Origin: Candidatus Magasanikbacteria bacterium RIFOXYB2_FULL_38_10
GTDB taxonomy: Bacteria > Patescibacteriota > Patescibacteriia > Magasanikbacterales > UBA10003
NCBI GenBank assembly: GCA_001783145.1
Contig: MFQT01000010.1
Span: forward strand, 1-47,449
Reading direction: 5' to 3'
DNA: 47,449 nt
The notes beneath the pieces are model-generated. The model saw only the letters and a list, made by a program, of their open reading frames with translations, did not search any database and was not told the DNA's origin. The translations under genes and the position numbers were made by a program. Below, one piece after another: positions 14,501 to 43,802 of this stretch. Numbering within the stretch: the stretch's first letter is position 1; the number at the start of each line of letters is the position of its first letter.

Positions 14501-15043
14501 TTAAGCTGTTACTTTTTTATCTTTATAAGCGTTAAAAACTTGTACAAGTCCGCGTAAATTTCCGGCCAAGACATTTACAAAACCGGAGATTGGGGCTTGG
14601 ATAGAACCAACCAATTTGGCCAAAAGTTCTTCGCGAGAAGGCAAGGTGGACAAAACTTTTACTTCGTTGGCGGAAATAAAAGAATTCTGCCAAAGGCCTC
14701 CTAAAAGCGCCATTTTGTCATTGGTCTTAGAAAACTTGGTAATTATTTTTACCGCATCTAATTTATCACCAAAGTCAAAATTTAAACCAATAATGTGGCC
14801 CGGTAAAGTTTTAGCGTCATAATTGATACCGGCTTCTTTAAAAGCCAAATTCATTAAGGTTTTTTTAATAACAGCGCATTCAGAATTATTTTTGGATAAT
14901 TCACGTCTTAAATTGGTAATGTCCTTAACTTTTAAACCTTTGAAGTCAGTCAAAATAACCATCTTGGATTCTTTTAAAGCCTCCACTAAGGTTTTAATTA
15001 CCGACTCTTTTTGATTTCTACTCTTAGGCATAATTGTAAACAA
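14501..15043 (-). CDS. rplJ: 50S ribosomal protein L10
   Basis: 180 aa; L10 family; immediately upstream of rplL. Confidence 0.9.
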   Translation of the reverse strand: MFTIMPKSRNQKESVIKTLVEALKESKMVILTDFKGLKVKDITNLRRELSKNNSECAVIKKTLMNLAFKEAGINYDAKTLPGHIIGLNFDFGDKLDAVKIITKFSKTNDKMALLGGLWQNSFISANEVKVLSTLPSREELLAKLVGSIQAPISGFVNVLAGNLRGLVQVFNAYKDKKVTA

Positions 15044-15199
15044 AAAATCTGTGTTCTGCCACAGACTTGAAAACGGGTTTGCTTCGACCTATTTTGCCTT
15101 ATTTAAGACAAAATTAGCTCACCTCGGCAGGAAATTAAAGCCTTAAGGGCTACCTGCTATCTATGGTTAAAGATATTATAGATGAGAATATAAAAAATG
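15044..15199 (-). promoter_or_regulatory. putative L10(L12)4 autoregulatory leader of the rplJL operon
   Basis: 156-nt structured untranslated leader between pyrH and rplJ; hairpins tctgtg-ttctgc-cacaga and gcagg...cctgc; position matches the ribosomal L10 leader of other bacteria. Confidence 0.4.
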
Positions 15200-21248: not shown

Positions 21249-24092
21249 TTAAACAACAATACTTAACAGCTTACCCTTAACAAAGATAATTTTTTTAGGT
21301 TCTTTGCCTTCCAGCCATTTTTTAATTTTTTCGCTAGATAAAACAATTCTTTTGGCCTCTTCTTCTGTAATATCCACCGCCACCTCTAAAGTATCACGCA
21401 ATTTACCATTAACTTGCACAGCCAAAATAAAAGTTTCATCTTTGGCCAATTCGGCGTTAAACTCTGGCCAAGCAGATTGAAAGATTGTTTTCTTATTACC
21501 TAGTTCCTGCCAAATATCCTCTGCCAAATGCGGAGCAAAAGGAGCCAGGAGTTTAATAAATTTTCCAAAATCGTCTTGGCTAATGATGGAAGAATCATTT
21601 AAATTATTAACAAAAATCATTAATTGCGAAACGGCTGTATTAAATTTCAATTCTCCAATATCATCGGTCACTTTCTTAATTGTTTTTTCAATTTCTCTTC
21701 TCAATTCTTTATTTGTCTCTTTGGCCCATTTAATTTTTTGTGAAAAGTTCCAAATTCTCTCTAAAAACCTTCTCATGCCTACCACGCCTTTGGTGCTCCA
21801 AGCACAAGGCTGACCAAATGGCCCCATAAACATTTCATAGAGCCTCATAGCGTCAGCGCCATATTCACCCACAACATCATTAGGATTGATAACATTATTC
21901 CAACGCTTGCTCATTTTGCGGCCATCCTCGGCCAAAATCAAGCCGACGTGTTGTAATTTAGTAAATGGTTCATCATAGTTTACCGCGCCGATATCAAATA
22001 AAAATTTATGCCAAAAACGCGCGTAGATTAAATGCCTGGTGGCATGTTCTGCCCCACCAACATACAAATTTATGGGCGACCAATATTTTTCTAAATTCTT
22101 ATCAACCAATGCTTTTTTATTATTGGGATCCTCATAGCGCAGATAATACCAACAAGATCCGGCCCATTGCGGCATAGTGTTAGTCTCGCGCTTGGCTGGT
22201 CCGCCACACTTGGGACAAGTTGTATTCACCCACTTTGTGATATTAGCTAGTGGAGATTCCCCTGTTCCTGTCGGCTCATATTTTTTAACTTTGGGCAATT
22301 CTAATGGCAAATCTTTTTCTGGCACGCTCACCCAGCCATCTTTCTCACATTTCACCAGCGGAATTGGTTCTCCCCAATAACGTTGCCTGGAAAAAACCCA
22401 ATCACGGATTTTGTATTGCACCTTTTTTTCTCCCAAACCTTTTTCTTTTAGCCAGTTAATTATTTTTTCTTTAGCCTCTAAAGTTGAAAGCCCATCCAAA
22501 AAATCAGAATTGATTGCGATGCCTTCACCAGCAAAACATTTTTCTTTAGGATCAATTGCGCGACGAATAAACTCCACTTGACCTTGTATATTATATTTTT
22601 CAAATAAAGATAAGGCATCTTTTAAATTTTGCCACTCACCGGTGTAATCCTCAAGATCTTCCATCTGCGGTGGTTGTTGTTTTTCTGATTTTAAATTGAC
22701 AATATATCCTTTTTGATATTTTAAACGTTGTATTTTTAAATCCTCAATATAAAAATTAGCCTGAATTGTTCCTAAAAAATCCCCCCTCTCAAAATCCAAA
22801 AATCCTGTCTCTTCAATTATTTCTCTTCTAAGTGTTTGTTCGTCACTTTCTCCTTTATTATATCTACCAGCCGGCAATTCATACTCGCCATTCGGGCGTT
22901 TCAACACATAAATCTGTCCTTTTTTATTTAACAAAACACCTGCCACGCCATCGGCGCGGATAAAATTGGTTTCAACTTCACCAAATTGTTTAGCTACCAC
23001 CTCTTTAATCCCCAATCCATACTTCTTAGCAAACTCATAGTCCCTTTCATCATGCGCGGGCACGGCCATAATGGCGCCGGTGCCATAACCCATCAAAACG
23101 TAATCCGCCACCCAAACCGGCAGTTCCTCTCCATTCACTGGATTTATGGCCACCACGTCTTCCAACTTCACGCCAGTTTTTTCTTTAGCCAAATCAGTCC
23201 TCTCCAATTCTGATTTATTTTTTGCTAGAGCAACGTAATCTTTTACTTCCACCAAATTACAAATTTCCCCTTCTAAACTATGTAGCAAAGGATGCTCTGG
23301 CGTAAGGACAACATAAGTAGCTCCAAACAAAGTGTCGGGACGAGTGGTAAACACTTCCAAACTTTCCTCCTGCCCACCTGCTTTTAATTTAAATGTCACC
23401 AAAGCCCCTTCGCTTTTCCCAATCCAATTTCTTTGCATCTCTTTTATGGATTCTTCCCATTCAGGCAAATTATCCAAGCCCTGCAATAATTTTTCTGCGT
23501 AATCGGTAATTCTAATCACCCACTGACGCAAGGGCTTGCGTTCTACAACAGAACCACAACGTTCACAAAGTCCTCCTTCCAAATCTTCATTAGCCAAACC
23601 GGTTTTACATCCCGGGCACCAGTTAATAGGCTCGTTTGATTCATAAACCAAACCTTTTTTAAACATTTCCAAAAACGCCCACTGCGTCCATTTGTAATAA
23701 GCCGGGTCGGTAGTATTAACTTCTCTGTCCCAATCATAGGTAAAACCCAAAAGTTCCAACTGCTTTTTAAAAATTTTGATGTTTTTTTCCGTAGCCACCG
23801 ATGGATGAACTTTATTCTTGATAGCGTAATTTTCCGCTGGCAGACCAAAAGCGTCCCAACCCATTGGATGCAAAACATTAAACCCCTGCATCATTTTCAT
23901 TCTGGCAATGACATCTGTGGCAATATAGCCCTTAGGATGGCCCACATGCAAACCTGCACCGGAAGGATAGGGAAACATATCCAAAACATAATATTTTGGT
24001 TTGTCGCCACCTTCTTTGGTTTTATAAATCCCCTTTTTAATCCACTCTTTCTGCCACTTCTTTTCTATTTCTTTGTGATTATATTTTTTCAT
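21249..24092 (-). CDS. leuS: leucyl-tRNA synthetase carrying an in-frame Nudix hydrolase domain insertion
   Basis: 947 aa; HVGHP, ZN-1 knuckle CPGC...CERC, editing domain TTRPDTLFGATY, RDWVFSRQRYWG, KMSKR. About 130 extra residues (aa ~375-500) after the editing domain contain a perfect Nudix box GRYNKGESDEQTLRREIIEETGF. Confidence 0.9.
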   Translation of the reverse strand: MKKYNHKEIEKKWQKEWIKKGIYKTKEGGDKPKYYVLDMFPYPSGAGLHVGHPKGYIATDVIARMKMMQGFNVLHPMGWDAFGLPAENYAIKNKVHPSVATEKNIKIFKKQLELLGFTYDWDREVNTTDPAYYKWTQWAFLEMFKKGLVYESNEPINWCPGCKTGLANEDLEGGLCERCGSVVERKPLRQWVIRITDYAEKLLQGLDNLPEWEESIKEMQRNWIGKSEGALVTFKLKAGGQEESLEVFTTRPDTLFGATYVVLTPEHPLLHSLEGEICNLVEVKDYVALAKNKSELERTDLAKEKTGVKLEDVVAINPVNGEELPVWVADYVLMGYGTGAIMAVPAHDERDYEFAKKYGLGIKEVVAKQFGEVETNFIRADGVAGVLLNKKGQIYVLKRPNGEYELPAGRYNKGESDEQTLRREIIEETGFLDFERGDFLGTIQANFYIEDLKIQRLKYQKGYIVNLKSEKQQPPQMEDLEDYTGEWQNLKDALSLFEKYNIQGQVEFIRRAIDPKEKCFAGEGIAINSDFLDGLSTLEAKEKIINWLKEKGLGEKKVQYKIRDWVFSRQRYWGEPIPLVKCEKDGWVSVPEKDLPLELPKVKKYEPTGTGESPLANITKWVNTTCPKCGGPAKRETNTMPQWAGSCWYYLRYEDPNNKKALVDKNLEKYWSPINLYVGGAEHATRHLIYARFWHKFLFDIGAVNYDEPFTKLQHVGLILAEDGRKMSKRWNNVINPNDVVGEYGADAMRLYEMFMGPFGQPCAWSTKGVVGMRRFLERIWNFSQKIKWAKETNKELRREIEKTIKKVTDDIGELKFNTAVSQLMIFVNNLNDSSIISQDDFGKFIKLLAPFAPHLAEDIWQELGNKKTIFQSAWPEFNAELAKDETFILAVQVNGKLRDTLEVAVDITEEEAKRIVLSSEKIKKWLEGKEPKKIIFVKGKLLSIVV

Positions 24093-25217: not shown

Positions 25218-26053
25218 TTAAATAAAATTAAAACTAAAACAAGCAAAAAAGCATATTGCAAACCCTGCAAGGCATTAACCAAAGTGACACTGGCGAGTGA
25301 AATAGCATAATTGATAAGCAAAAAACTGGCCGCTCCGGCAACCTGGCCAAACAAAAATAAAAAACCTGATTGACGCGCTATTTTTTTATCTTGATGAAAA
25401 ATATCATGTCGGTTTTGAGCGCTAAGTAATAAAAATAAAGCCCCGACAAAAGTGGTTAAGCGCAGCCAAACAAAAGCATTGACAAAAGATAAATTATTAA
25501 AGAGATACTTGGTTAAAGCATAAGACAAGCCAAAAAAGAAAGCGGAAAAAAGAGCCAACCAATAAACGCGGCGAGAATTAGATTTTCCGGTTTTGCCCAA
25601 AGAAATTAAAACTGTGCCTAAAATAATCACAACAAAAGCCATAATTTGTTTAGGGTTCAACCTTTCATTCAATATAAAAAAAGAAAAAATAAAAACAAAA
25701 ATCGGAGAAAAGCCGCCAATAAAAGGCGTGATGCGTGAGGATTCAGAAATTTTTAAAGATTTAAAAAGATAAAGTAACGCCAAAGCAAAAGAGATGCCGG
25801 CAATTAAAGAAACAAATAAATTCCACCAACTTATTAAAGCCAAACCCCAAGGCGCCAGCACCAGACCAAAGAGTCCCAATAAAGAAATATAAAAAACATA
25901 TACCGCGGGGTTGGAAATTTTTTTGGAAATCAAAATTTTATCTACCACAGCGGAGAGAGCATTTAAAAAATAGCCTATTAGGGAAATTAAAAGCCACATA
26001 AATATAGATACTGAAATTATAACAAATTTGAGGAATAAAAAAAGAGGACACAA
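25115..26053 (-). CDS. DMT/EamA-family 10-TM transporter
   Basis: Two tandem 5-TM EamA-like repeats. The ORF-track start at 26053 is a TTG; a more likely ATG is at 25999. Confidence 0.6.
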   Translation of the reverse strand: MCPLFLFLKFVIISVSIFMWLLISLIGYFLNALSAVVDKILISKKISNPAVYVFYISLLGLFGLVLAPWGLALISWWNLFVSLIAGISFALALLYLFKSLKISESSRITPFIGGFSPIFVFIFSFFILNERLNPKQIMAFVVIILGTVLISLGKTGKSNSRRVYWLALFSAFFFGLSYALTKYLFNNLSFVNAFVWLRLTTFVGALFLLLSAQNRHDIFHQDKKIARQSGFLFLFGQVAGAASFLLINYAISLASVTLVNALQGLQYAFLLVLVLILFKWRPNLLEEKIKGWVLVQKILAIILIGWGLFLLV

Positions 26054-26071
26054 GCGTTAACTCGTGTCCTC
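26037..26071 (-). terminator. rho-independent terminator ending the GC-rich minus-strand operon
   Basis: gaggacac...gtgtcctc 8-bp stem followed on the minus strand by TTTTTTT. Confidence 0.6.
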
Positions 26072-26242
26072 GGAGGTTCGTGCTTTGTCTTTGGAGTTAT
26101 CCTTAGACTGGCAATCCTCTTGACCGTACGGTTTTACGGCCACTTTATTTGGCTGACCTCCGCCTATGGAGCTTTCATTTACCCTTTTGGGGATGGTTAA
26201 AGCAGAAACCGTTAGATTGTAGATGTCGTAGCCCTGCTACGA

Positions 26243-26857
26243 CTAGGCCGCGGCGGCCTTCTTCTTCGGGGCGGCCTTGGCCTTCTTCCCGGCCTTGGGC
26301 TTGGCCGGCGCCTTCTTGCCCTCGTCCGCGGGCTGGGTCGGGGCGGCGGGCTCCGGCTTGGGCGGCGGGGTGTAGCCCGTGGCCTCGTGGAACCAGCTCG
26401 GCGCCGCGTCGTTGACCAGCACGCCCTTCTCACCGGCCTGGATGCCGAGCGCCTTGACCGCGCGCACCAGCACCATCTTGACCTCGGCGGCCGTGGTCAG
26501 CACCTTGGAGTAACGCGGCTGGTCGTCCTGCCCCGGCTGCTTCCAGTCGTACTTGGCCGGGAAGCTGGACTTGAGGTCCACGCCCTTGGCCGGCTCCACC
26601 CGCACGCGCACCTGGTGCCCCAGGTCTCGCACTCCGATCCTGCCCTTGGGGGTCACCGCCAGCACCAGGTACTGCCCAGTGCTCTCGGTCCCGCCCATGA
26701 AGAACGGGTTGACCTTCTTGCCGTCCTTCTTGACCACCTTCAGTGGCCAGTCCGGGAAGCCGAGCGCCTTGAACGCCTTGCTCATGTCCATGGGGTTCTC
26801 CTTCGGCGCCTTCTTCTGGGGCGCCGCGCCGGTGGTGGGGGTCTCTCCGCACGCCAT
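26243..26857 (-). CDS. basic protein: unknown N-terminal domain plus histone-H1-like Lys/Ala/Pro-rich C-terminal tail
   Basis: 204 aa, about 68% GC; tail PPPKPEPAAPTQPADEGKKAPAKPKAGKKAKAAPKKKAAAA; GAGGAGG Shine-Dalgarno upstream; last gene of the 3-gene operon. Confidence 0.7.
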   Translation of the reverse strand: MACGETPTTGAAPQKKAPKENPMDMSKAFKALGFPDWPLKVVKKDGKKVNPFFMGGTESTGQYLVLAVTPKGRIGVRDLGHQVRVRVEPAKGVDLKSSFPAKYDWKQPGQDDQPRYSKVLTTAAEVKMVLVRAVKALGIQAGEKGVLVNDAAPSWFHEATGYTPPPKPEPAAPTQPADEGKKAPAKPKAGKKAKAAPKKKAAAA

Positions 26858-26874
26858 TGTTGCCTCCTCGGAGC

Positions 26875-27717
26875 CTACTTTAGCTCCTTATCAGTTGGGA
26901 AACTTTCCTTTACACCCGTACCCGAACCGAATGCTCCAAACGTCCCCTGGCTTCCACCAGGCAAACGTGCTTGATCCAAATAACCATAGCGCGATGATCC
27001 CGGAGGATTAAAGCTGTCGTCTGCCAAATCCTCCAAGTAGTAAACGCCACTCTTTCCCCCGGTTCCGTAGTTGGTGATGCCAAGGGAGTAATCCCTCAAA
27101 GAAGGATCGTTCGAGTAGCTCTCGGGAAGATCTTCTCCCCGCAGAGCGAAAATCGCTTCCGCTTGCTCCAGCGTTTCCACCGACTTGTGGCAATGACGCT
27201 TACGAGCGGCAGAGATTGGATCCGGAGTCTGCTCCCTGTTCTCCAACAAAGCGATGAGAGACGCTAGGAACGTCCCTGTTCGCCCGTGAGAGCCGATGCA
27301 GTACACCATCACCTTTTTACCAGCCTGCAACAACGGAATGACTTTGTCAAGCAAGAACTCTTCAAAGCCATCCGGTGGTGGACTAAAGTCAGGCCAAGGG
27401 CAACCCAAGACCTGAACTGTCTGCCCCAGTTCCAAACGGATCGCCCGAGTATCATCCAGGGGTATCAAGACATCAAACCCGTCAAAATCCCCTTCTTTCA
27501 GATACCGTGTCCCGCCCGGATAGATCTGGTAAGGGCCAACCTGCACCGCCTTCTTACCGCGGTGTGCAGGGTGGCTATCTTTTTTAATCTTCAATTTTTT
27601 GGCAGAACCACCGCTTGCTGGGACAAAGCCCTTCTCGGTCCAATCCCAGGCTTGGTCAGAACCCTTACGGCCATGTCCAGTTGGCAGGCCGCCCTTTCCT
27701 CCTTGCTCTATCATCAT
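26875..27717 (-). CDS. dual-specificity / protein-tyrosine phosphatase (CX5R P-loop) with G/S/Y-rich low-complexity C-terminal tail
   Basis: 280 aa; catalytic VYCIGSHGRTGTF with upstream WPDFSPP...; tail YSLGITNYGTGGKSGVYYLEDL...GGSQGTFGAFGSGTG. Confidence 0.8.
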   Translation of the reverse strand: MMIEQGGKGGLPTGHGRKGSDQAWDWTEKGFVPASGGSAKKLKIKKDSHPAHRGKKAVQVGPYQIYPGGTRYLKEGDFDGFDVLIPLDDTRAIRLELGQTVQVLGCPWPDFSPPPDGFEEFLLDKVIPLLQAGKKVMVYCIGSHGRTGTFLASLIALLENREQTPDPISAARKRHCHKSVETLEQAEAIFALRGEDLPESYSNDPSLRDYSLGITNYGTGGKSGVYYLEDLADDSFNPPGSSRYGYLDQARLPGGSQGTFGAFGSGTGVKESFPTDKELK

Positions 27718-27738
27718 CCCCTCCTTTCGGCAGCCTGC

Positions 27739-30087
27739 CTAAGCTGCTTTTTGTAAAATCTTAGTCTTCCAAAGGCCAAGATTTTTACCCCTTTCAAACA
27801 ACTCCTGAACTTCTTTACTAAATTCCCACCGAGCCAAACCTTCGTAGAGAGAAGCAATGCTCGTAGCGTTCTTCTTAATCTCCAACTGCTCTTGAACCTC
27901 GTATCTGTCTCCGGACAACATCTCGTGCTTGTCAAAGACATTGCCCGTGTTGTGCTGAAGATCAAAAACGTGATCGGCAAAAGCAGAGTGATTCAGCTTG
28001 CCACTGAGGAACAAAAGGCCGGCCGTAGCAATAACAGCCCACTTGGGACCGCCAAAGCTATAGCCGCGCCATTTTCCCTTTTCAAAGGCTTCGGCGTTAA
28101 GGCGGAAGAATTCAATTGCCTCGGCCAAGTCCATCTTCTTTAAGGCCTCTTTCAGAATCTTCTGGGTATTCTCTCTGTTACTGGGACTAGTGCCCCAGTA
28201 GTCGTTCGGAAGATGATACTTAGCCCTAAGGATAAAGTAGGCCGGTGAGGCAGCTGTCACTTTGCTTTCATCGGCGAATTCATCATCCTTTTTTTGCGGA
28301 GAATAATGCCGCGATTCGGCACCAACGGCCATGGCCAGGTAGGCCACAAAACGCTCGGCCGTTTCAATATGGATCCGCCGACGCAAGCTGGCAACGGCAG
28401 ATTCCAACGCTGTTCCCTTGGACGCTTGGGTCATGGCGTCCACCAGGTAAAAGTCATTGAGAGTGGTATTGACGGAGACACGGCTCTCAATGTACGCGGG
28501 ATCAAGGCGGGGCTTTGGCCAATACAAGTTGCTCTTTTCCATCCAGCGCAAGAAGATGTTGGTTTCCTTCTTGGGCACTGGATTAGCCATTTCCACCACG
28601 CCATTCATAACCATTCCGGTTGCTCCGTCTACCGAAATGATCTGTCCTTGCTTCACCAAAAGATCTTGGACGCCGACCACCGCCGGCTTGCCAAAGCTTC
28701 TGGCTACGACAGCCGCGTGCGATGTTGCTCCGCCAACCTTAGTTACCACGGCGGCAGAAATGAGCAGTCCGGGAAGATCCGCTGGTGATGTCTCGTCGCG
28801 CACCAGGATCACCTTGACTCCGTTGTTTGCCAACTCAATGGCTTCAGCAGAACTCAAGGCAACTGTGCCCACGACCGCACCAGGCGAAGCCGGCAGACCC
28901 TTGGCTAAAAGTTTGGCTTGCGCCGCCCTCGCCAAGGCCTCTGGCTTGAACACCTGACGGCTCACCGCCTCTATCTGCTCTGCAGTAACCCGCCGCAAAG
29001 CTTCATCCTTGGTCAACAGCCTCTCCCAAACCATGTGAGTGGCAATAATGACCGCAGCTTCGGGGGTGCGCTTAGCTGCCCGATACTGCAGGATGTAAAG
29101 ACGGCCGTTTTCCACGGTGAACTCCACGTCCACCGCGTCTTTCAAATGGGCCTCCAGCTTCCGCACAATCTGCTGGAGTTCGATGAAGAGGTGGGAGTTC
29201 CACTCCTTCATCTTAGCAATTGGCAACGGGGTGCGGATCCCGGCCACCACGTCCTCACCCTGGGCATTAACCAAGAACTCGCCGTAAAGCTCAGGGTTGC
29301 CAGTGGAGACATCGCGGCTAAAAACGACCCCTGTGCCAGAGTCGTTGCCACGGTTGCCAAAAACCATGGCCTGCACATTGACCGCCGTTCCCCACCATTC
29401 GGGAATCTCGTGCGCCTGGCGGTAAGCCTTGGCGCGCTCGCTATCCCAAGAGAGAAACACGGCCGTGATCGCCATCTGTAGCTGCTGCCAAACATCGTCC
29501 GGCACCGAACGCTTAGTCGCACTGGAGATAAGCTCGCGATAATTCTCGCAAAGCTCTTCCAGCGACTTAATGGTCAGCTTGCTGTCCTCAGTTATGCCTT
29601 GCTTGCGCTTGGCCTTGGTGAGGATTTTCTCAAAGCGCTGACGATCAATACCCAGGACCACGTCACCGAAAAGGCTTAGAAACCTCCGGTAAGTATCCAA
29701 GGCGAAACGCTTTGAGCCGGTATCCTTGGCCAGACCCTTAACGGTCTTAGGATTCAGACCAAGATTGAGCACCGTGTCCATCATACCGGGCATGGACTTG
29801 GCCGCGCCCGAACGCACGGACACGAGAAGCGGAGAGGAGTTGCCCCCAAACCGCTTCCCGGTCCGTGCTTCCAGCGCCTTTACACCTCTTTGAAGCTGCC
29901 CGGCGAACCGGGCAGGAAAACCACCGTGCTCGCCAAAAGCGCGGGCAACAGTCGTCGTCACCGTGAACCCGGGCGGAACCGGCACGCCAAGGCGCACCAT
30001 TTCCGCAAGACCCGCTCCCTTACCGCCCAAAACCTGGGCAGTACGGGCTACCTCTCCAAAGAGGTAGACCACTTGTCCGTTCCTCAT
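27739..30087 (-). CDS. PPDK-derived phospho-histidine phosphotransferase: PPDK_N ATP-grasp plus PEP-utilizer swivel His domain plus a novel ~260-aa C-terminal domain replacing the pyruvate/PEP TIM barrel
   Basis: 782 aa; residues 1-520 align closely to pyruvate phosphate dikinase (LGGKGAGLAEM, LLVSVRSGAAKSMPGMMDTVLNLGLN, WGTAVNVQAMVFGN, NAQGEDVVAGIRTP, GGATSHAAVVARSFG). The C-terminal third lacks every PEP-utilizers_C motif and is about 48% GC against about 61% for the PPDK part. Confidence 0.85.
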   Translation of the reverse strand: MRNGQVVYLFGEVARTAQVLGGKGAGLAEMVRLGVPVPPGFTVTTTVARAFGEHGGFPARFAGQLQRGVKALEARTGKRFGGNSSPLLVSVRSGAAKSMPGMMDTVLNLGLNPKTVKGLAKDTGSKRFALDTYRRFLSLFGDVVLGIDRQRFEKILTKAKRKQGITEDSKLTIKSLEELCENYRELISSATKRSVPDDVWQQLQMAITAVFLSWDSERAKAYRQAHEIPEWWGTAVNVQAMVFGNRGNDSGTGVVFSRDVSTGNPELYGEFLVNAQGEDVVAGIRTPLPIAKMKEWNSHLFIELQQIVRKLEAHLKDAVDVEFTVENGRLYILQYRAAKRTPEAAVIIATHMVWERLLTKDEALRRVTAEQIEAVSRQVFKPEALARAAQAKLLAKGLPASPGAVVGTVALSSAEAIELANNGVKVILVRDETSPADLPGLLISAAVVTKVGGATSHAAVVARSFGKPAVVGVQDLLVKQGQIISVDGATGMVMNGVVEMANPVPKKETNIFLRWMEKSNLYWPKPRLDPAYIESRVSVNTTLNDFYLVDAMTQASKGTALESAVASLRRRIHIETAERFVAYLAMAVGAESRHYSPQKKDDEFADESKVTAASPAYFILRAKYHLPNDYWGTSPSNRENTQKILKEALKKMDLAEAIEFFRLNAEAFEKGKWRGYSFGGPKWAVIATAGLLFLSGKLNHSAFADHVFDLQHNTGNVFDKHEMLSGDRYEVQEQLEIKKNATSIASLYEGLARWEFSKEVQELFERGKNLGLWKTKILQKAA

Positions 30088-31150
30088 GTTCTCCTCCTTG
30101 CGAGAGTGGGATTTTTGGGTTTTGTCACAGCAGGGTCACCAGAATAATTCCGGAGGTTTTCCTTATACCGGCCACACCCATTCGCCCGGATTGGATTTTT
30201 GTCCAGAATTTTTCTTTTCAATGGCTATTCCAGTTTTATCTCCACTAGTTAATTAGTTAAGGATTTACACTCACCGAAGTGAGTCCTTGCTAAAATTCCA
30301 GTGGCTTAGACTGGTATCACCATCTAGGCAAGCTTATACCCGCTATCTAGGTTCACCCAAGGCTAAAACCTTTAGCTGATCCCGGTTGCTGATCTGCGGA
30401 TTTTTCAACCCTTCAATTCAACCTTTCACAGCCTCAGGCCATAACTGCATTTGCTACAGCCGCGGTCGCCAACCGCTCTTTACAATTGCCTAGCCACCGG
30501 GGCTAGGTTACCTTTACCAGCAAGAAAACAGACAGCAAATATCTGTAAACTTGCGACCATCACCGCCCAGGCCGGCTTGATGATTTCCAACTCCTAGAGA
30601 CCCTCGAGCCTCTTTAGAATTGGAGGTGTAGTAGAAGGACCCAATCTGTTCCTTTCCTGCCACACAGGTAGATCTTGCAGAAGGCATGCCCGGTCCTTTC
30701 CGCAAGAGTCTGTTTCTCCCCCTTCCCAGTCAGTCCCTTTCAGGAAGACTCCAGGGGAGAAAGAAGAACTACCAACAGGGTCAGACCAACCTGCTGGCAA
30801 ACGTTTTAACCTAGGGGTGGCCACCCCCATGGTCGCGTGGTGCACCACAGGACGCGTTACCGCCCCACAACCAACCCCGCGTCATTGCCAACGCCGGGAA
30901 GGTTGATTTTTAAACTTAACAAAAATTTAGTTTTATTAGTGTCTTTATATCAAATTTTGATATAAAGACTTCAGGCACTGCATACTACCCCCTTGCTAAT
31001 TCCGGCAATTGAATTAGCAGGGTTGCTGATTTATTTTTGCGAGGTGGGTTCAGCTCCCACCGTCTGTTGCTTAAGGCAGTGCATTTCTTCCTCCTTTTTG
31101 TTGATGTGTTGAATTGTCAACGAGCACGCAACCACGGTTTTTCACTAACC
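30088..31150. other. about 1.1-kb non-coding, intermediate-GC, palindrome-rich tract upstream of the GC-rich operon (candidate structured RNA, operator array or decayed DNA)
   Basis: No ORF of 100 aa or more on either strand; perfect palindromes ggggtggccacccc (30814..30827), gtggtgcaccac (30837..30848) and gtctttatatcaaa-t-tttgatataaagac (30941..30969); many short hairpins. Confidence 0.4.
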
Positions 31151-31358
31151 ATAGCGGCGAATATAATTTGGATATCTAAACAAACGAAGGTAGATATCAA
31201 AACATTATTTGCCACTAATTTAAGCTTAAAATTATATTTTTTAGGAAACGTATTATTGTATCACAAATTTTAACTTTTGTCAAGTCCCCTGTGGTCGTCC
31301 CAGATAAAACATAAAACCAGCCCAAACAAGGGCTGATTTTTATGTCATCAATTAAATA

Positions 31359-36866: not shown

Positions 36867-36895
36867 TTGACAAAAAGGCTAAAAAGTGATATAAT
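36867..36895 (+). promoter_or_regulatory. perfect sigma-70 consensus promoter TTGACA-N17-TATAAT upstream of sufS
   Basis: ttgaca at 36867..36872, 17-nt spacer, tataat at 36890..36895; AAGGAGGG Shine-Dalgarno 7 nt before ATG 36987. Confidence 0.7.
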
Positions 36896-36986
36896 AAGCA
36901 GTTGCCAGAATGAGTTTTCTGGTGATTGCATTTAATTTGGCGATCTTTAACAGGGCCATAATGGCCACCACAAGGAGGGCGACGAG

Positions 36987-38237
36987 ATGACGAAGCTCCT
37001 CAACATCAAGGGCGATTTCCCAATCCTGAGAGAACCCAGGGGAGACGAAGGTGTTTTCCTGACCTACCTGGACAGCGGGGCATCGTCGCAGAAGCCCGAG
37101 GCGGTGATCAAGGCGGAGGAGCAGTTCTACTGCGCCTCCAACGCCAACATCCACCGCGGTGCCTACCGGCTGGCCCGCAAGGCCACGGAGATGTACGAGG
37201 CCGCGAGGGTCACGGTGGCCGCGTTCATCGGGGCCGGCGATCCCCGGTCCCTCGTCTTCACCAGCGGCACCACCATGGGCACGAACATCGTGGCCCACGC
37301 CTGGGCCGAGGGCAACCTCCAGGACGGCGACATCGTGCTCTTCACGGAGATGGAGCACCACGCCAACATCGTCCCTTGGCACCTGCTGGGCAAGCGCCGC
37401 GACATCAAGACCGCGGCCGTCAAGGTGGACGACCGCGGGGTGCTGGACATGGAGGATCTGAAGGCCAAGCTCACGGCCGGCGAGGGACAGGTGAAGCTGG
37501 TGGCCGTGACCCACGTCTCCAACGTGACCGGGGTGAAGAACCCCGTCAAGGAGATCACGTCTCTCGCGCATCAGTTCGGCGTGGCCGTGCTGGTGGACGG
37601 GGCGCAGTCCGCCCCCCATCTGCCCGTGGACGTGGAGGACATCGGGTGCGACTTCTTCGTCTTCTCCGGCCACAAGATGCTGGGGCCGACCGGCATCGGC
37701 GGCCTCTACGTGCGTCCCAGCCGCTGGAGCGAGATCTCCCCCTTCTTTGGGGGCGGTGACATGATCACGGACGTCACCCTGGAGAACTCGGCCTTCAAAC
37801 CCATGCCCAGCCTGCTGGAAGCCGGTACGCCCAACATCGCCGGAGCGGTGACGCTCGCGGCGGCCTGCGACTACCTCAAGAGCATCGGCATGGAGCGGGT
37901 TGAGGAGCACGTCAGGACCGTGGGCACCTACGCCTGGAACAAGCTCAAGGCCATTCCGGGCGTAAAGGTCTACGGACCCGGCCCGGGAGAGCACAGAACC
38001 GGTTCACTCGTCTCCTTCACCGTGGACGGCGTCAAGAACGACGAGATCATGGCGGAGCTGGACGAGTACGGGGTGGCGGTGCGCGTAGGCCGGTTCTGCG
38101 CCTGGCCCATCTTCAAGCGCCTGGGCTTGGGCAACAACGGGGCGGTGCGAGCCTCGTTCCACATCTACAACAACTACCAAGACGTTGATCTGCTGGCCTC
38201 GGTCATCCGGGGACTCGCCGAGCAGGCGCACCAGTAA
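36987..38237 (+). CDS. sufS: SufS/CsdA-type cysteine desulfurase (class V aminotransferase, PLP-dependent)
   Basis: 416 aa, about 65% GC; PLP-lysine motif SGHKMLGPTGIG; catalytic Cys loop RVGRFCAWP; whole-length similarity to group II cysteine desulfurases. Confidence 0.9.
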   Translation: MTKLLNIKGDFPILREPRGDEGVFLTYLDSGASSQKPEAVIKAEEQFYCASNANIHRGAYRLARKATEMYEAARVTVAAFIGAGDPRSLVFTSGTTMGTNIVAHAWAEGNLQDGDIVLFTEMEHHANIVPWHLLGKRRDIKTAAVKVDDRGVLDMEDLKAKLTAGEGQVKLVAVTHVSNVTGVKNPVKEITSLAHQFGVAVLVDGAQSAPHLPVDVEDIGCDFFVFSGHKMLGPTGIGGLYVRPSRWSEISPFFGGGDMITDVTLENSAFKPMPSLLEAGTPNIAGAVTLAAACDYLKSIGMERVEEHVRTVGTYAWNKLKAIPGVKVYGPGPGEHRTGSLVSFTVDGVKNDEIMAELDEYGVAVRVGRFCAWPIFKRLGLGNNGAVRASFHIYNNYQDVDLLASVIRGLAEQAHQ

Positions 38238-38319
38238 CCTTAGAGTCTCGGCAACCCTTGAACAAAAGAACCAATCTCAAAGGGTGGATTGATTCTTAAC
38301 CTAAGCTAACCCTAAACGT

Positions 38320-41491: not shown

Positions 41492-41643
41492 GATGCGACT
41501 CCCTAGGGTTAAATTTAAATATCAACTGTTTTCAGTTTAGCCTATTTGGCCTGTTTGGTCAAGGAGGGAGACAAGACAAAAGTGAATGATTTTTTGGACG
41601 CAATTGTTGGAAGCGAAAGAAGATATAAAAATTAGATGCAATA

Positions 41644-41694
41644 AAAAAACCGGCAATCGCAGATTTGTCGTTGTGACATTTCTTTGATTGCCGG
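41644..41694 (-). terminator. putative terminator after the flotillin-like gene
   Basis: 9-bp stem ccggcaatc / gattgccgg with a long loop, U-tract on the minus strand. Confidence 0.35.
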
Positions 41695-41759
41695 CGTTAG
41701 CGCTTAGTTGTTGTGCTCAGCGCTCTACCCTTTACAGATAAACTGCTTGGGGGAAAGAG

Positions 41760-43802
41760 TTAATTTTTGCCGAACGCACCAGCCACAGCTTTGGAAAGGT
41801 TGCTGTGCCCCAGAATTGCCGCTGCGGACGAAAAATCCGAGCCACCCCCCTCCACAAGTACTTCGGGCTGTTTGACCATCTCCGGATGGTCCTTTAGCAC
41901 CGTCAAGAGCTCACGGAAAAGAGCCAACTCAAGAGTCTTATCCTGACCAAGAACGGCCACCTGAGCACGCTGGCCTTGTGCCTCGGCTTCCAGTCGCGCC
42001 TTGGCGCCCAAACCAAGCTGTTCATCAGCCTGCTTCTTGATCTGAGCAGCGATCAGCGTCTCCTGCTGATCAGCTTCCGCCTTCTCCTTCTCAGCCTGGA
42101 TACGCGCAGTCTGTGCGATCTTCTCCTGCTGGAAGGTTTCGTTCATCTGCTGAGCAAGCTGCATGCGCTTGCCGGGGATGAGCAGTTCGGGAGGAACGTA
42201 GGGATCACCAAAACGGACATCCCTTGCGATGAGACCGGTCTTGAGAGCTTCCGGCTTGACTCCTCCTTCAACCAGAGCCTCCATCTTCTGCCGCTCATAG
42301 ATCACTTGCAAAACCTTCACGTCGCGGTTGCCCAGGATATTCCTCGACACCGAACGGTAGAGCGGAGTGATTATGCGATCTTCCACCTGCTTCAAATCCC
42401 CGACATACGCCACCACAAAGGGAGCGTTCTCGGGCGTAACCTGAACCAGGATTCGGGAATCGAGCCAGACATCCCATCCTTCAACCTTGTGATTGATGGC
42501 TCCATCGGCCGCTCCCTCCGGAATGTCAACCTTCTCTTCCGACACGGTCTGCACGATGGATCCATCCTTGTCCACCGTGAGGTTGAACGTCCTGCGGATG
42601 TAGCCACCCTCGTACCGCCAAGTTTGTACCCTGGTGTCGATCTTGGTAACCGTGTACGCAAAGGGATTCAAGTAATACTTGCCGGGCAAAAGTACACTTT
42701 CCCAGACACCAATATCGCCCTGCGGAACCAAGGGATTGGACAGATTGGTGAGCGCCATGATGCGCGCTTCTTCCTCGGAAACAGCCTTCAGTCCGTCCAG
42801 TTCGGCCTTGATCTTGTCCTTGCTCACAGGTCCTTCAAGCGACAAGAAGGTCGGAATGGCAACCGGCGCCTTATCATCAAGTTCGGCCTTGGCCGGTTGC
42901 TCGGTGGGGGCAATGGCGGTCTTGGAGAGAACCAGCTTGGACTTCCCGGCTTCCTCTTCTTCCCGCTTGTTAATCTCTTCCAACATTTGATTCAGTCTGA
43001 TTCGCCTCTGACCGATCTCAAGTCTAGACGCTTCAATATATGAAGCGACAATAGACTTGGGAACAATGGGGTCGCCAATGTACTTCTGTCCCACGTTGGA
43101 CTTGACCACGCCAACGAAACCAGCATCAATCTCGGTCTCGTCCACGGGATCTCCAACATCAAACAGGTACCTGTTGACACGGTAAGTACCGGGCTTGAGG
43201 ACAGTCAACTGAAGACCCTTGTATCCTCGCGGAAGGCCGTTTTCAGTATCAATACCCATGAAGTACTGGGCATCCAGGTACTGTTCAAACTCCTTCTCCG
43301 GCCAGCCATCAGCCATATACTGACCATCGGGCAGGGCACGACCATCCTTGGCCGTCAGAACCCTCAACTTGCCAGCTGCCACTTCCACCGTGTTCAGCTC
43401 TTCAATGTCGTTCAACACCTTGAGGAAGAAGCTGAACTGGAATCCGGGAGGCAGGATCTCGGCGCGAGGCCCCTTTTGCCAACCAGTCGCAATGACGCGG
43501 CCGGTAGGCATGTCCGTACCATAGATCCTCTTCAAATGCCCCACCTTGTCCGTATCAATGTAGGTGAAGCTGGTCATGAAAACTAAGAAGCCGGCCAAAA
43601 CAAAAGCCGTAATGGAAATGGCTCGCGTAAGCAAGGAGGACGGCTCTGCGGGAGGGAGATCCTTCTCCACCTCTCCACGCCTGCGCCTGGTCTTGTTGGC
43701 CTCTTCTACAGATGCACGATACTCTTGGTGGATGTTTCTCAGCAATCTGGGAGCGAAAGCCCCCACCAGCACTGCGAGAACTGCCAGAATGAGCAAGGAC
43801 AT
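41760..43802 (-). CDS. SPFH/flotillin-like (YqiK-type) membrane protein
   Basis: 680 aa, about 57% GC; two N-terminal TM segments; C-terminal flotillin-type Ala/Glu/Gln-rich coiled coil (TARIQAEKEKAEADQQETLIAAQIKKQADEQLGLGAKARLEAEAQGQRAQ). Confidence 0.65.
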   Translation of the reverse strand: MSLLILAVLAVLVGAFAPRLLRNIHQEYRASVEEANKTRRRRGEVEKDLPPAEPSSLLTRAISITAFVLAGFLVFMTSFTYIDTDKVGHLKRIYGTDMPTGRVIATGWQKGPRAEILPPGFQFSFFLKVLNDIEELNTVEVAAGKLRVLTAKDGRALPDGQYMADGWPEKEFEQYLDAQYFMGIDTENGLPRGYKGLQLTVLKPGTYRVNRYLFDVGDPVDETEIDAGFVGVVKSNVGQKYIGDPIVPKSIVASYIEASRLEIGQRRIRLNQMLEEINKREEEEAGKSKLVLSKTAIAPTEQPAKAELDDKAPVAIPTFLSLEGPVSKDKIKAELDGLKAVSEEEARIMALTNLSNPLVPQGDIGVWESVLLPGKYYLNPFAYTVTKIDTRVQTWRYEGGYIRRTFNLTVDKDGSIVQTVSEEKVDIPEGAADGAINHKVEGWDVWLDSRILVQVTPENAPFVVAYVGDLKQVEDRIITPLYRSVSRNILGNRDVKVLQVIYERQKMEALVEGGVKPEALKTGLIARDVRFGDPYVPPELLIPGKRMQLAQQMNETFQQEKIAQTARIQAEKEKAEADQQETLIAAQIKKQADEQLGLGAKARLEAEAQGQRAQVAVLGQDKTLELALFRELLTVLKDHPEMVKQPEVLVEGGGSDFSSAAAILGHSNLSKAVAGAFGKN

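What the first reader, a model, noticed from the sequence alone, without database searches (positions are those of the whole stretch)
27739..28560. Domain swap with a compositional seam inside the PPDK-like gene
The 5' two-thirds of the gene (PPDK-homologous) is about 61% GC, while the 3' third encoding the novel C-terminal domain is about 48% GC. The protein homology to PPDK ends abruptly after the His swivel domain (…VGVQDLLVKQGQIISVDGATG). This pattern fits a relatively recent fusion that replaced the substrate-binding module.
Basis: seen in the sequence. Interest (0 to 1): 0.6.

Follow-up and report, generated by a model that had tools for sequence, protein, structure and literature searches.

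The report
Ancient dikinase fusion operon, RNA leader
The gene is not a recent patchwork: it belongs to a widespread, uncharacterised family in which a PPDK-type kinase is permanently fused to a new helical domain, and it travels with a phosphatase, a small unknown protein and a previously undescribed structured RNA leader.

Summary
The GC step is real but smaller than stated: 58.0% against 49.3%, not 61/48. Most of it lies in codon positions 1 and 2. The best change-point is near codon 590, not at the domain junction (codon 491). All 38 homologous genes examined show the same direction of step, with no systematic GC3 difference.

The fusion is old. Of the best 150 cluster representatives, 96 carry the kinase, the His-swivel domain and the C-domain. 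The two halves co-evolve, and the nearest relative is the same protein for both halves. The replacement of PPDK's pyruvate/PEP module by a new all-alpha domain does hold.

The gene is the first of a conserved operon: kinase-X, a DSP/PTP-type phosphatase, and a small protein (p204). Fusions link all the parts, and phages carry an unfused version. The whole 5.2-kb operon is the real compositional anomaly: 54% GC in a roughly 38% GC Candidatus Magasanikbacteria genome.

Upstream lies a structured RNA leader with strong covariation. It recurs in 33 of 44 cassette loci, always on the cassette strand, and is absent from Rfam.

The biochemical function is unknown. The best inference is a phosphoryl relay from His457 to an acceptor bound by the new domain.

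The parts
31255..31283 (-). Sigma-70-type promoter of the operon (TTGACA, 17 nt, TACAAT, with TG extended -10). It lies just downstream of the terminator of the preceding GDH gene (31313..31340).
   Evidence: 11 of 12 matches. The -35 hexamer is conserved at the equivalent place in L048.
30088..31254 (-). Leader of about 1.16 kb with no credible ORF, 45.8% GC. Collinear blocks of 75-81% nucleotide identity are shared with the equally long spacer of the related locus L048.
   Evidence: The 813-nt 3' part folds with z = -4.8 against shuffles. No Rfam match.
30248..30576 (-). Best-conserved core of the leader. 73 predicted pairs, 8 of them with compensatory double changes between the window and L048.
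   Evidence: register-shifted controls give 0-2 such pairs.
30444..30507 (-). Three-hairpin RNA motif: CCUAGCC-CCGGU-GGCUAGG, then GCGGU-UGGCG-ACCGC, then a variable third hairpin. It recurs in 33 of 44 cassette loci, always on the cassette strand.
   Evidence: On 17 sequences, 96.9% of cells are paired and 16 of 18 pairs have compensatory changes; 0 of 500 shuffles reach this.
30269..30285 (-). Invariant UUCG-tetraloop hairpin (GACUCAC-UUCG-GUGAGU) in the leader, identical in L048.
27739..30087 (-). Kinase-X gene (782 aa): PPDK-type ATP-grasp, phosphohistidine swivel domain and the novel C-domain.
29053..30075 (-). ATP/AMP-binding ATP-grasp part (aa ~5-345).
   Evidence: PF01326 at 5e-47; PPDK structures align over aa 7-501 at E ~1e-127.
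28615..28815 (-). PEP-utilizers mobile (swivel) domain, aa 425-491. The catalytic His457 lies in the motif GGATSHAAVVAR (codon 28717..28719).
   Evidence: PF00391 at 3e-23. H457 is invariant in 50 family members. Position.
27742..28599 (-). C-domain 'X' (aa 497-782), all-alpha, no known fold relative. Residues invariant or nearly invariant across the family include Y547, Y583, E591, H594 (E-x-R-H), G679, G680, W683, D705, H712, N713 and K720.
   Evidence: Homologous to a separate phage protein, phrog_20946.
26875..27717 (-). DSP/PTP-type cysteine phosphatase (280 aa) with the C-X5-R loop CIGSHGR at aa 140-146 (27280..27300).
   Evidence: PF22785/PF22784 at 8e-6 and 1e-5. Conserved directly after kinase-X in 24 of 40 loci. 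Fused to kinase-X in P0112.
26243..26857 (-). p204: small protein with a conserved alpha/beta core (aa 52-158; invariant G56, T57, E58, T60, R77, R84, R86, K106, R115, S117) and a Lys/Ala/Pro-rich tail (aa 165-204). GC3 = 0.97.
26044..26071 (-). Strong intrinsic-terminator-like hairpin (12 pairs followed by a T run) closing the operon.

Best explanation
Shown.
- The gene is a member of an old, widespread and uncharacterised family. In it, the ATP-grasp and phosphohistidine swivel domains of a PPDK-type dikinase are fused to a novel all-alpha domain (X), which takes the place of the pyruvate/PEP TIM barrel.
- It is the first gene of a conserved operon: structured RNA leader, kinase-X, DSP/PTP-type phosphatase, p204.
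- The GC step inside the gene reflects the Gly/Ala/Arg-rich composition of the kinase part, plus a mild 3' decline. It does not mark a fusion junction.
- The true compositional anomaly is the whole 5.2-kb operon: 53.9% GC in a roughly 38% GC Candidatus Magasanikbacteria genome.

Inferred mechanism.
- ATP loads His457 on the swivel domain, as in PPDK and in the truncated PPDK derivative VadK.
- The domain then swings to X, whose invariant polar residues (E591, H594, D705, H712, N713, K720) bind an acceptor that receives the phosphoryl group.
- The adjacent cysteine phosphatase reverses that mark.
- p204 has an Arg/Lys-rich invariant surface and nucleic-acid-binding-like tails, and in one relative it sits between an EAD8 adaptor and a TIR effector. 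It is either the target or the reader of the mark.
- The leader RNA controls expression in cis.
- The rapid divergence, patchy distribution, multiple copies per genome and phage-borne unfused versions suggest a role in a biological conflict or a regulatory switch rather than in central metabolism.
For: Architecture and age.

Co-evolution of the halves, and the same nearest neighbour for both.

GC step is a family property confined to GC1/GC2. Change-point is not at the junction.

Operon conservation: PTP in 24 and p204 in 28 of 40 loci, in the same order and on the same strand.

Fusion links: kinase+X+PTP in P0112; PTP+p204 in L042. X is a separate gene next to the kinase and PTP genes in phages RcZahn and J26.

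Catalytic His and ATP-grasp residues are invariant. VadK shows that a PPDK derivative lacking the TIM barrel still autophosphorylates on the equivalent His (PMC13400623).

Island is real: the identical protein in the same context on 13 contigs. Composition. Promoter and terminators.

Same chromosomal site in L048, with cassette proteins 49-59% identical against 71-91% for the flanking housekeeping proteins.

Leader RNA.

Conflict link: EAD8-p204-TIR protein P0208.
Against: There is no biochemical evidence for any step after His loading. The acceptor is unknown.

Neither X nor p204 has a recognisable fold relative, so 'acceptor-binding' and 'reader' are inferences from position and conservation.

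PADLOC finds no known defence family. The TIR fusion is a single protein on short contigs, with no kinase or leader seen nearby.

The window's leader is a divergent, expanded version: its motif lies about 360 nt from the start codon, and the near-invariant 3' block CUCCUGCCGCGAC of other loci is not recognisable.

The window's intragenic GC step (8.7 points) exceeds the family mean (z ~3.3). Something extra is needed, perhaps faster drift of the less constrained C-domain towards the AT-rich host, and this was not tested.

It is unexplained why the cassette stays GC-rich, and p204 at GC3 ~0.97-0.99, in two AT-rich genomes that share the insertion site.
Confidence: 0.6

Rival explanations
1. One reading: a recent recombination joined a PPDK gene to foreign DNA encoding a new C-terminal domain, and the GC step marks the junction.
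For: GC is 58.0% against 49.3%. The GC3 difference is 66 against 58, p = 0.03. The step is larger than in most homologues (z ~3.3).
Against: The same architecture occurs in at least 96 divergent cluster representatives and in 40 loci from several phyla. The halves co-evolve and share the nearest neighbour P0001. The change-point is at codon ~590, not 491. All 38 homologues have the same direction of step, with no mean GC3 difference.
Confidence: 0.03
2. It is a protein kinase/phosphatase switch. Kinase-X phosphorylates p204 (for example at the invariant GTEGTGxY Thr/Tyr or at S117), X acts as the docking domain as the helical EIN subdomain docks HPr in PTS Enzyme I, and the DSP phosphatase resets the switch. 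The phosphorylation state would tune binding of the p204 tail to nucleic acid.
For: The DSP/PTP family is mostly made of protein phosphatases. PTP-p204 and kinase-X-PTP fusions exist. Thr/Ser/Tyr residues are invariant in p204. p204 carries Lys/Ala-rich tails, or tails with a repeated K-[LV]-P-G-x-N-x-A-S-R-W-S motif. VadK is proposed to act on protein partners (PMC13400623).
Against: X has an invariant polar cluster (E, H, D, H, N, K) that looks more like a catalytic or small-ligand site than a docking face. About a quarter of the loci lack a detectable p204. No p204 homologue was detected in the two phage modules examined (tblastn).
Confidence: 0.25
3. It is a signal-generating conflict system. 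Kinase-X makes a phosphorylated small molecule or nucleotide, the phosphatase erases it, and p204 is the receptor domain that drives an effector: nucleic-acid-binding tails here, a TIR domain in P0208.
For: In P0208 the order EAD8, p204 core, TIR mirrors a sensor-effector arrangement. p204 has invariant Arg/Lys residues. Cassette proteins diverge fast, 49-59% against 71-91% for the flanks. There are several copies per genome and a patchy distribution across phyla. Phages carry homologues. The PTP matches families named from polymorphic-toxin and 'Swiss Army Knife' conflict proteins.
Against: No PADLOC hit. Only one TIR fusion was found, and not seen next to a kinase. No effector with obvious toxicity is present in the window's operon.
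Confidence: 0.2
4. It is a polymer or small-molecule dikinase paired with its phosphatase. One model is plant glucan, water dikinase working with the DSP glucan phosphatases SEX4/LSF2 (the author's background knowledge). Another is a xenobiotic dikinase of the rifampin-phosphotransferase/HpeHI type.
For: The dikinase chemistry is shared and substrate modules are swappable in this superfamily: RPH and PEP synthase hits to the swivel domain, and HpeHI splits the modules into two proteins (PMC12167813). The dikinase + DSP pairing parallels GWD + SEX4.
Against: X shows no similarity to the rifampin-binding domain or to carbohydrate-binding modules. The RPH domain order differs, with the swivel domain last (alignments map our swivel domain to the C-terminal end of the RPH models). 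A resistance kinase would gain nothing from an adjacent phosphatase. The p204 tails and the RNA leader have no counterpart in those systems.
Confidence: 0.1
5. It is an ordinary metabolic PPDK/PEP synthase, an 'auxiliary metabolic gene' as the phage literature annotates it.
For: Annotated as pyruvate phosphate dikinase in phage records and in PMC12038007. TIGR01828 aligns over aa 5-519.
Against: The pyruvate/PEP-binding domain is absent. TIGR01828 scores 629 bits, against a cut-off of 843, and covers only profile positions 2-526 of 865.
Confidence: 0.02

Closest known systems
Pyruvate, phosphate dikinase (PPDK; e.g. PDB 1KBL, 1DIK)
   Same: The ATP-grasp nucleotide domain and the phosphohistidine swivel domain, with the TSH catalytic motif. 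About 45% of the sequence aligns at E ~1e-127.
   Different: It lacks the C-terminal pyruvate/PEP TIM-barrel domain and carries an unrelated all-alpha domain of about 290 aa instead.
VadK (M. tuberculosis Rv1127c), a truncated PPDK-derived autophosphorylating kinase (PMC13400623)
   Same: It is a PPDK derivative without the TIM barrel that keeps Mg-ATP-dependent autophosphorylation on the swivel-domain His. The window protein scores 513 bits against NF004531, a 534-position NCBIfam model named pyruvate, phosphate dikinase, whose cut-off is 456. That this model represents Rv1127c-type truncated PPDKs is the author's recollection.
   Different: VadK ends after the swivel domain and acts with methylcitrate-cycle enzymes. 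The window protein has the extra X domain and different partners: a PTP phosphatase, p204 and an RNA leader.
Phage 'PPDK' modules (phrog_18609 kinase + PTP phosphatases + phrog_20946) in Rhodobacter phage RcZahn, Vibrio phage J26, Stenotrophomonas DLP3/DLP5 and Rhizobium TM16
   Same: A homologous kinase (37-45% identity), homologous PTP phosphatases, and a homologue of the X domain with the same invariant residues, all in one gene cluster.
   Different: In phages X is a separate protein of about 340 aa, and the kinase has its own, different C-terminal region. No p204 homologue or leader motif was detected in the two phage loci examined.
Rifampin phosphotransferase and two-component dikinases such as HpeHI (PMC12167813)
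   Same: The same swivel-His relay between an ATP site and a separate acceptor site, with modules that can be fused or split.
   Different: The domain order differs (acceptor domain before the swivel domain), and the acceptor domain is unrelated.
Glucan, water dikinase with DSP glucan phosphatases (SEX4, LSF2, laforin); from background knowledge, not tested here
   Same: A His-swivel dikinase paired functionally with a dual-specificity-type cysteine phosphatase that removes the mark.
   Different: No carbohydrate-binding module is detectable. The context is bacterial, CPR and phage, with p204 and an RNA leader.
Riboswitches and other structured 5' leaders (Rfam)
   Same: A conserved multi-helix element of 186-277 nt whose 3' block ends about 20-60 nt before the start codon in most loci where it precedes the kinase. 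It also recurs in front of other genes of the neighbourhood.
   Different: It matches none of the 4227 Rfam 15 families, even at permissive thresholds. The ligand or protein partner is unknown.

Membership tests
Pyruvate, phosphate dikinase (TIGR01828 equivalog) | ATP-grasp nucleotide-binding domain | tested here: met
   PF01326 at 5e-47; PDB PPDK alignments over aa 7-501.
Pyruvate, phosphate dikinase (TIGR01828 equivalog) | Swivel domain with the catalytic His in a TSH motif | tested here: met
   PF00391 at 3e-23; GGATSH457AAVVAR; H457 invariant.
Pyruvate, phosphate dikinase (TIGR01828 equivalog) | C-terminal PEP/pyruvate-binding TIM-barrel domain, and a full-length score above the cut-off | tested here: not met
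   TIGR01828 scores 628.9 bits, below the cut-off of 843.45. Only profile positions 2-526 of 865 are matched, and there is no PEP-utilizers_C hit.
Truncated PPDK / VadK type (NF004531) | Score above the curated cut-off of the model | tested here: met
   513.2 bits against a cut-off of 456, aa 5-504 on profile positions 11-465 of 534.
Truncated PPDK / VadK type (NF004531) | The protein ends after the swivel domain (about 490-530 aa, no further domain) | tested here: not met
   782 aa, with a conserved extra domain of about 290 aa.
Truncated PPDK / VadK type (NF004531) | Mg-ATP-dependent autophosphorylation on the swivel His | not testable with these tools
   Shown for VadK His422 (PMC13400623). 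Only residue conservation can be shown here.
Rifampin phosphotransferase / PEP-synthase-like small-molecule dikinases | Domain order ATP-grasp, substrate-binding domain, C-terminal swivel domain; homologous substrate domain | tested here: not met
   Only the swivel domain aligns, to the C-terminal end of those models (for example NF041857 positions 764-861 of 864). Scores are far below the cut-offs.
DSP/PTP cysteine phosphatases (neighbour gene 26875..27717) | C-X5-R catalytic loop | tested here: met
   CIGSHGR at aa 140-146.
DSP/PTP cysteine phosphatases (neighbour gene 26875..27717) | Pfam family score at or above the gathering threshold | tested here: inconclusive
   PF22785 scores 26.8 bits and PF22784 25.9 bits, against a cut-off of 27. 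Phage and bacterial homologues score higher.
Known anti-phage defence systems (PADLOC-DB 2.0) | A match of any operon protein to a defence-system model | tested here: not met
   No hit for kinase-X, the C-domain, PTP or p204 at E <= 0.01.
Any Rfam 15 RNA family (leader) | Covariance-model match | tested here: not met
   No match at gathering thresholds and none relevant at E <= 1.
Riboswitch / cis-regulatory leader (as a kind) | Conserved secondary structure with covariation, in the 5' UTR on the sense strand of the regulated genes | tested here: met
Riboswitch / cis-regulatory leader (as a kind) | A defined ligand or protein partner and a regulatory response | not testable with these tools
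   Needs in-line probing, reporter assays or binding assays.

The most novel reading that the evidence does not exclude
The operon is a new kind of phospho-relay system. A PPDK-derived dikinase uses a novel domain to write a phosphoryl mark on, or make a phosphorylated signal from, a still unknown substrate. A DSP phosphatase erases it. A novel small protein (p204, elsewhere wired to EAD8 and TIR) reads it. A new riboswitch-like structured RNA, shared by all genes of the regulon, controls or takes part in the system. The system would be used in conflicts between bacteria and their phages, and the phages carry an unfused counter-version.
Probability: 0.25. Interest if true: 0.85.

Novelty: new variant of a known kind. 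Interest (0 to 1): 0.62.

Why it matters
The compositional 'seam' in the original finding is mostly a by-product of amino-acid usage and would not matter on its own. Following it, however, exposes a conserved and apparently unstudied module.

The module consists of a His-swivel dikinase whose substrate module has been replaced by a domain of unknown fold, a dedicated cysteine phosphatase, a small protein of unknown fold, and a structured RNA leader with strong covariation that is absent from Rfam.

It is widespread in Melainabacteria (Obscuribacterales), sporadic in CPR bacteria and other phyla, and has an unfused counterpart in several families of cultured phages, where the kinase is routinely mis-annotated as a metabolic PPDK.

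Because cultured phage-host pairs (Vibrio, Stenotrophomonas, Rhodobacter, Rhizobium) carry the homologous genes, the function is directly testable. The recent VadK work shows that PPDK-derived kinases can take on regulatory roles, and this family would extend that theme with a defined partner set and an RNA element.

Tried and rejected
1. The word-indexed protein search with the C-domain found nothing. The exhaustive HMMER search was needed.

2. Pfam, NCBIfam and PADLOC gave nothing for the C-domain, p204 or the other genes behind the leader.

4. The phage kinases' own C-terminal regions are not homologous to the window's C-domain.

5. blastn and nhmmer with the window leader found nothing in distant loci. 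Only the covariance model did.

6. A metagenome scan for the invariant 21-mer of the leader found nothing, and the protein-guided metagenome scan gave only two distant loci. Hence the long form of the leader rests on two genomes only.

7. The extra gene g355 of L048 has no remnant in the window's spacer, so the spacer is not a decayed copy of it.

8. The TIR-fused p204 protein lies on short contigs with no kinase or leader nearby.

9. Assembly chimerism as the cause of the GC island was rejected: the identical protein sits in the same context on 13 contigs from different assemblies.

10. Literature searches found no functional study of the module or of the RNA.
Full report
THE OBSERVATION. The ORF 27739..30087 (- strand) encodes 782 aa. 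Pfam finds PPDK_N (5e-47) and the PEP-utilizers mobile domain at aa 425-491 (3e-23), and nothing in the last ~290 aa. Solved PPDK structures align over aa 7 to 501-519 at E ~1e-127. TIGR01828 aligns over aa 5-519 but covers only profile positions 2-526 of 865, at 629 bits against a cut-off of 843.

Exact GC is 58.0% for codons 1-491 and 49.3% for the rest. By codon position the values are GC1 63.7 vs 51.9 (Fisher p = 0.001), GC2 44.4 vs 38.1 (p = 0.10) and GC3 66.0 vs 58.1 (p = 0.03). A likelihood change-point scan places the break at codon ~594 (all positions) or 588 (GC3; permutation p = 0.028). At codon 491 the likelihood ratio is only 4.7, against a maximum of 11.1. The step is therefore real but smaller than stated, is carried mostly by amino-acid composition, and is not located at the domain junction.

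IS THE FUSION RECENT? No. A word-indexed search with the C-domain found nothing. An exhaustive HMMER search of 1.84 billion cluster representatives found 590 hits at E <= 1e-3, 58 of them at E <= 1e-30. Of the best 150, 96 have more than 200 aa of kinase in front of the C-domain, 14 are truncated ORFs with a kinase fragment, and 40 have the domain without a kinase.

Fifty full-length members align at 36-60% identity to the window protein, and all 50 carry PPDK_N and PEP-utilizers. A scan of one genome per species returned 40 loci, mostly Candidatus Obscuribacterales/Melainabacteria and often with several loci per MAG. It also returned Saccharibacteria, Yanofskybacteria, Moraniibacteriota, other Patescibacteria, Chloroflexota, a gammaproteobacterial MAG and Binatia. 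In these loci the kinase and C-domain segments are contiguous in one frame.

Pairwise identities in the two halves are correlated (r = 0.62, Mantel p <= 0.001). The window protein's nearest relative is the same protein, P0001, for both halves (64% and 51%). In 38 of 38 homologous genes the kinase part is GC-richer than the C-domain part (mean 3.8 +/- 1.5 points), through GC1 (+4.4) and GC2 (+6.4). GC3 differs by only 0.7 +/- 4.0 points, with 19 of 38 genes in each direction. The 'seam' is thus a property of the protein family.

The window's step (8.7 points) is larger than average (z ~3.3), and its closest relative in another AT-rich host shows 5.9 points. My untested inference is that the less constrained C-domain (mean pairwise identity 32%, against 47% for the kinase part) drifts faster towards the host's composition.

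WHERE THE C-DOMAIN COMES FROM. PHROGs matches the kinase part to phrog_18609 ('kinase') and the C-domain to a different family of unknown function, phrog_20946. Sixty-two phage records encode a homologue of the kinase part; none covers 80% of the query. In Rhodobacter phage RcZahn and Vibrio phage J26 the kinase gene is followed by PTP-type phosphatases and a hypothetical protein of about 340 aa, close to the terminase and DNA polymerase genes.

The window's C-domain is homologous to that separate protein (J26: E = 2e-15; RcZahn gp10: E = 8e-9). It is not homologous to the phage kinases' own C-terminal regions. The invariant residues are shared with the phage proteins: Y547, Y583, E591, H594, G679, G680, W683, D705, H712, N713, K720. 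The bacterial protein is therefore a Rosetta-stone fusion of two proteins that are separate neighbours in phages.

THE OPERON. Directly downstream on the same strand lie two genes. The first is a 280-aa protein with borderline matches to DSP-PTPase families (PF22785, PF22784) and a C-X5-R loop, CIGSHGR. The second is a 204-aa protein, p204, with no family match.

tblastn shows the order kinase-X, PTP, p204 across the 40 loci, with PTP detected in 24 and p204 in 28. Further fusions tie the parts together. P0112 (935 aa) is kinase + X + PTP in one chain. In L042, PTP and p204 form one 286-aa ORF.

One member, P0208, has the order EAD8 (aa 6-100), p204 core (142-244), TIR (261-341). That is a link to NTP-dependent conflict systems, but its contigs are short and show neither a kinase nor the leader. 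PADLOC finds nothing for any operon protein.

THE REAL COMPOSITIONAL ANOMALY. The whole stretch from the promoter to the terminator (26072..31283) is 53.9% GC. The rest of the window is 39.8%, or 38.2% without two other GC-rich stretches. GC3 is 0.63 for kinase-X, 0.56 for PTP and 0.97 for p204, against 0.31-0.41 for the neighbouring housekeeping genes.

The identical protein in the same context (IF-2, thioredoxin, GDH | operon | EamA..., LeuRS, ComEC) lies on 13 contigs from independent assemblies of groundwater metagenomes, so this is not a chimera. A source name identifies the organism as Candidatus Magasanikbacteria RIFOXYB2_FULL_38.

The closest homologue, P0001, sits at the same chromosomal position in a second genome (L048). 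There the flanking proteins are 71-91% identical to the window's, but the cassette proteins are only 49-59% identical. The cassette is again GC-rich, with p204 GC3 = 0.99. The extreme GC3 of p204 is family-wide, on average 0.16 above its own kinase gene in 28 loci.

Either the cassette is old at this site and its composition is actively maintained, or alleles are exchanged at a fixed site. I could not decide between these two.

A STRUCTURED RNA LEADER. Between the GDH terminator (31340..31313) and the kinase start lie a strong promoter (31283..31255; 11 of 12 matches plus TG) and about 1.16 kb without a credible ORF. L048 has an equally long spacer with collinear blocks of 75-81% nucleotide identity, which is better conserved than the coding sequence. 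The 813-nt 3' part folds with z = -4.8. In the two-sequence alignment, 8 of 73 predicted pairs carry double compensatory changes, against 0-2 in register-shifted controls.

A covariance model built from these two sequences found a three-hairpin motif of about 65 nt in distant cassette loci. All 15 non-seed hits at E <= 0.02 were on the cassette strand. On 17 sequences, 96.9% of cells pair (27-46% in shifted controls), 16 of 18 pairs show compensatory changes (1-8 in controls), and 0 of 500 shuffles reach the observed values. The caveat is that the hits were selected with a structure-aware model.

The refined model finds 37 instances in 33 of 44 cassette-bearing sources, all on the cassette strand, and none in the two phage loci. 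In 30 of 31 cases the motif is followed 186-277 nt later by a near-invariant block, CUAGGCGGUGG...CUCCUGCCGCGACAA. That block forms a hairpin supported by three independent compensatory changes and by loop insertions of 45-50 nt in two loci. The block ends about 20-60 nt before the kinase-X start codon in at least 10 loci. The same leader also precedes p204-like genes and other small genes without Pfam families.

No Rfam 15 family matches, at gathering or at permissive thresholds, and I found no literature on it. The window's copy (30444..30507) is a divergent, expanded version. It lies about 360 nt from the start codon and its 3' block is not recognisable.

HOW IT MOST LIKELY WORKS. Shown: the ATP-grasp domain and the catalytic His457 (GGATSHAAVVAR) are intact and invariant. 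The TIM barrel is replaced by X. A cysteine phosphatase and p204 are obligate neighbours and occasional fusion partners.

From established knowledge of PPDK, PEP synthase, rifampin phosphotransferase and HpeHI (PMC12167813), the swivel His carries the phosphoryl group from the ATP site to a spatially separate acceptor site. VadK shows that a PPDK derivative without the TIM barrel still autophosphorylates on that His and has taken on a regulatory role (PMC13400623).

Inferred: Fast divergence, patchy distribution, multiple copies per genome, the phage counterparts, the conflict-associated PTP families and the EAD8-TIR fusion together point towards a conflict or switch function, not central metabolism. 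None of this is tested. The phage literature's annotation as a metabolic PPDK (PMC12038007) is not tenable for proteins that lack the pyruvate/PEP domain.

VERDICT. What is really there is an ancient dikinase-X fusion heading a conserved, uncharacterised operon with a new structured RNA leader, present in this genome as a GC-rich island.

Noticed in passing
window 30088..31283 (-); core 30248..30576; motif 30444..30507: A promoter followed by a leader of about 1.16 kb with no ORF, holding a structured RNA element. Its three-hairpin core recurs, with strong covariation, upstream of kinase-X, p204-like and other small genes in 33 of 44 cassette loci. It is always on the sense strand and is absent from Rfam 15.
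   Followed up: yes
window 26243..26857 (-); L048 8586..9020; 28 other loci: p204 genes have extreme GC3: 0.97 here, 0.99 in L048, up to 1.00 elsewhere. On average this is 0.16 above the adjacent kinase gene, even in genomes of 38-55% GC. The cause is unknown; candidates are codon selection, gene conversion among paralogues or an overlapping feature.
   Followed up: partly
window 36879..38300 and 41500..43800: Two further GC-rich stretches in this AT-rich genome. One is a class-V aminotransferase (cysteine desulfurase-like) gene, 36987..38237, with GC 65% and GC3 0.91. The other is a 680-aa Band_7/SPFH protein gene, 41760..43802, with GC 55% and GC3 0.64. They look like additional horizontally acquired or compositionally deviant genes.
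   Followed up: no
L048 3127..4194: The related genome has an extra 355-aa gene (GC 52%, no family) between GDH and the leader. It is absent from the window, and no remnant is detectable there.
   Followed up: partly
proteins P0004, P0005, P0009, P0019, P0044, P0060 (C-terminal extensions of long kinase-X variants): Longer family members (900-1030 aa) carry extensions of 150-250 aa with no Pfam match. Five of the six whose extensions were printed (all but P0009) share a short D-x-S-G-S-M-S motif, which occurs twice in P0005. A seventh long variant, P0089, has an AAA ATPase domain.
   Followed up: no
protein P0208 (loci L051-L054): A p204 core domain sits between an EAD8 adaptor domain and a TIR domain in one 402-aa protein. 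This suggests the p204 core can act as a module of conflict or immunity proteins.
   Followed up: partly
window 21249..24092 (-): The 947-aa leucyl-tRNA synthetase-like protein is listed with a NUDIX (PF00293) hit between its tRNA-synt_1 segments in the precomputed Pfam annotation of the identical contigs. This may be an inserted domain.
   Followed up: no
window 15033..15184 (-): Ribosomal protein L10 leader (RF00557, 51.4 bits). It is the only Rfam family detected in the window, and no tRNA genes were found.
   Followed up: no
L033, L036-L039, L043, L044, L050: A subclade of kinase-X loci has a different gene neighbourhood: conserved genes of about 290 and 270 aa upstream, and genes of about 169-171 aa downstream. 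Most of them lack a detectable PTP and all lack a detectable p204. They carry a longer (~272-277 nt) version of the RNA element downstream of the kinase gene.
   Followed up: partly
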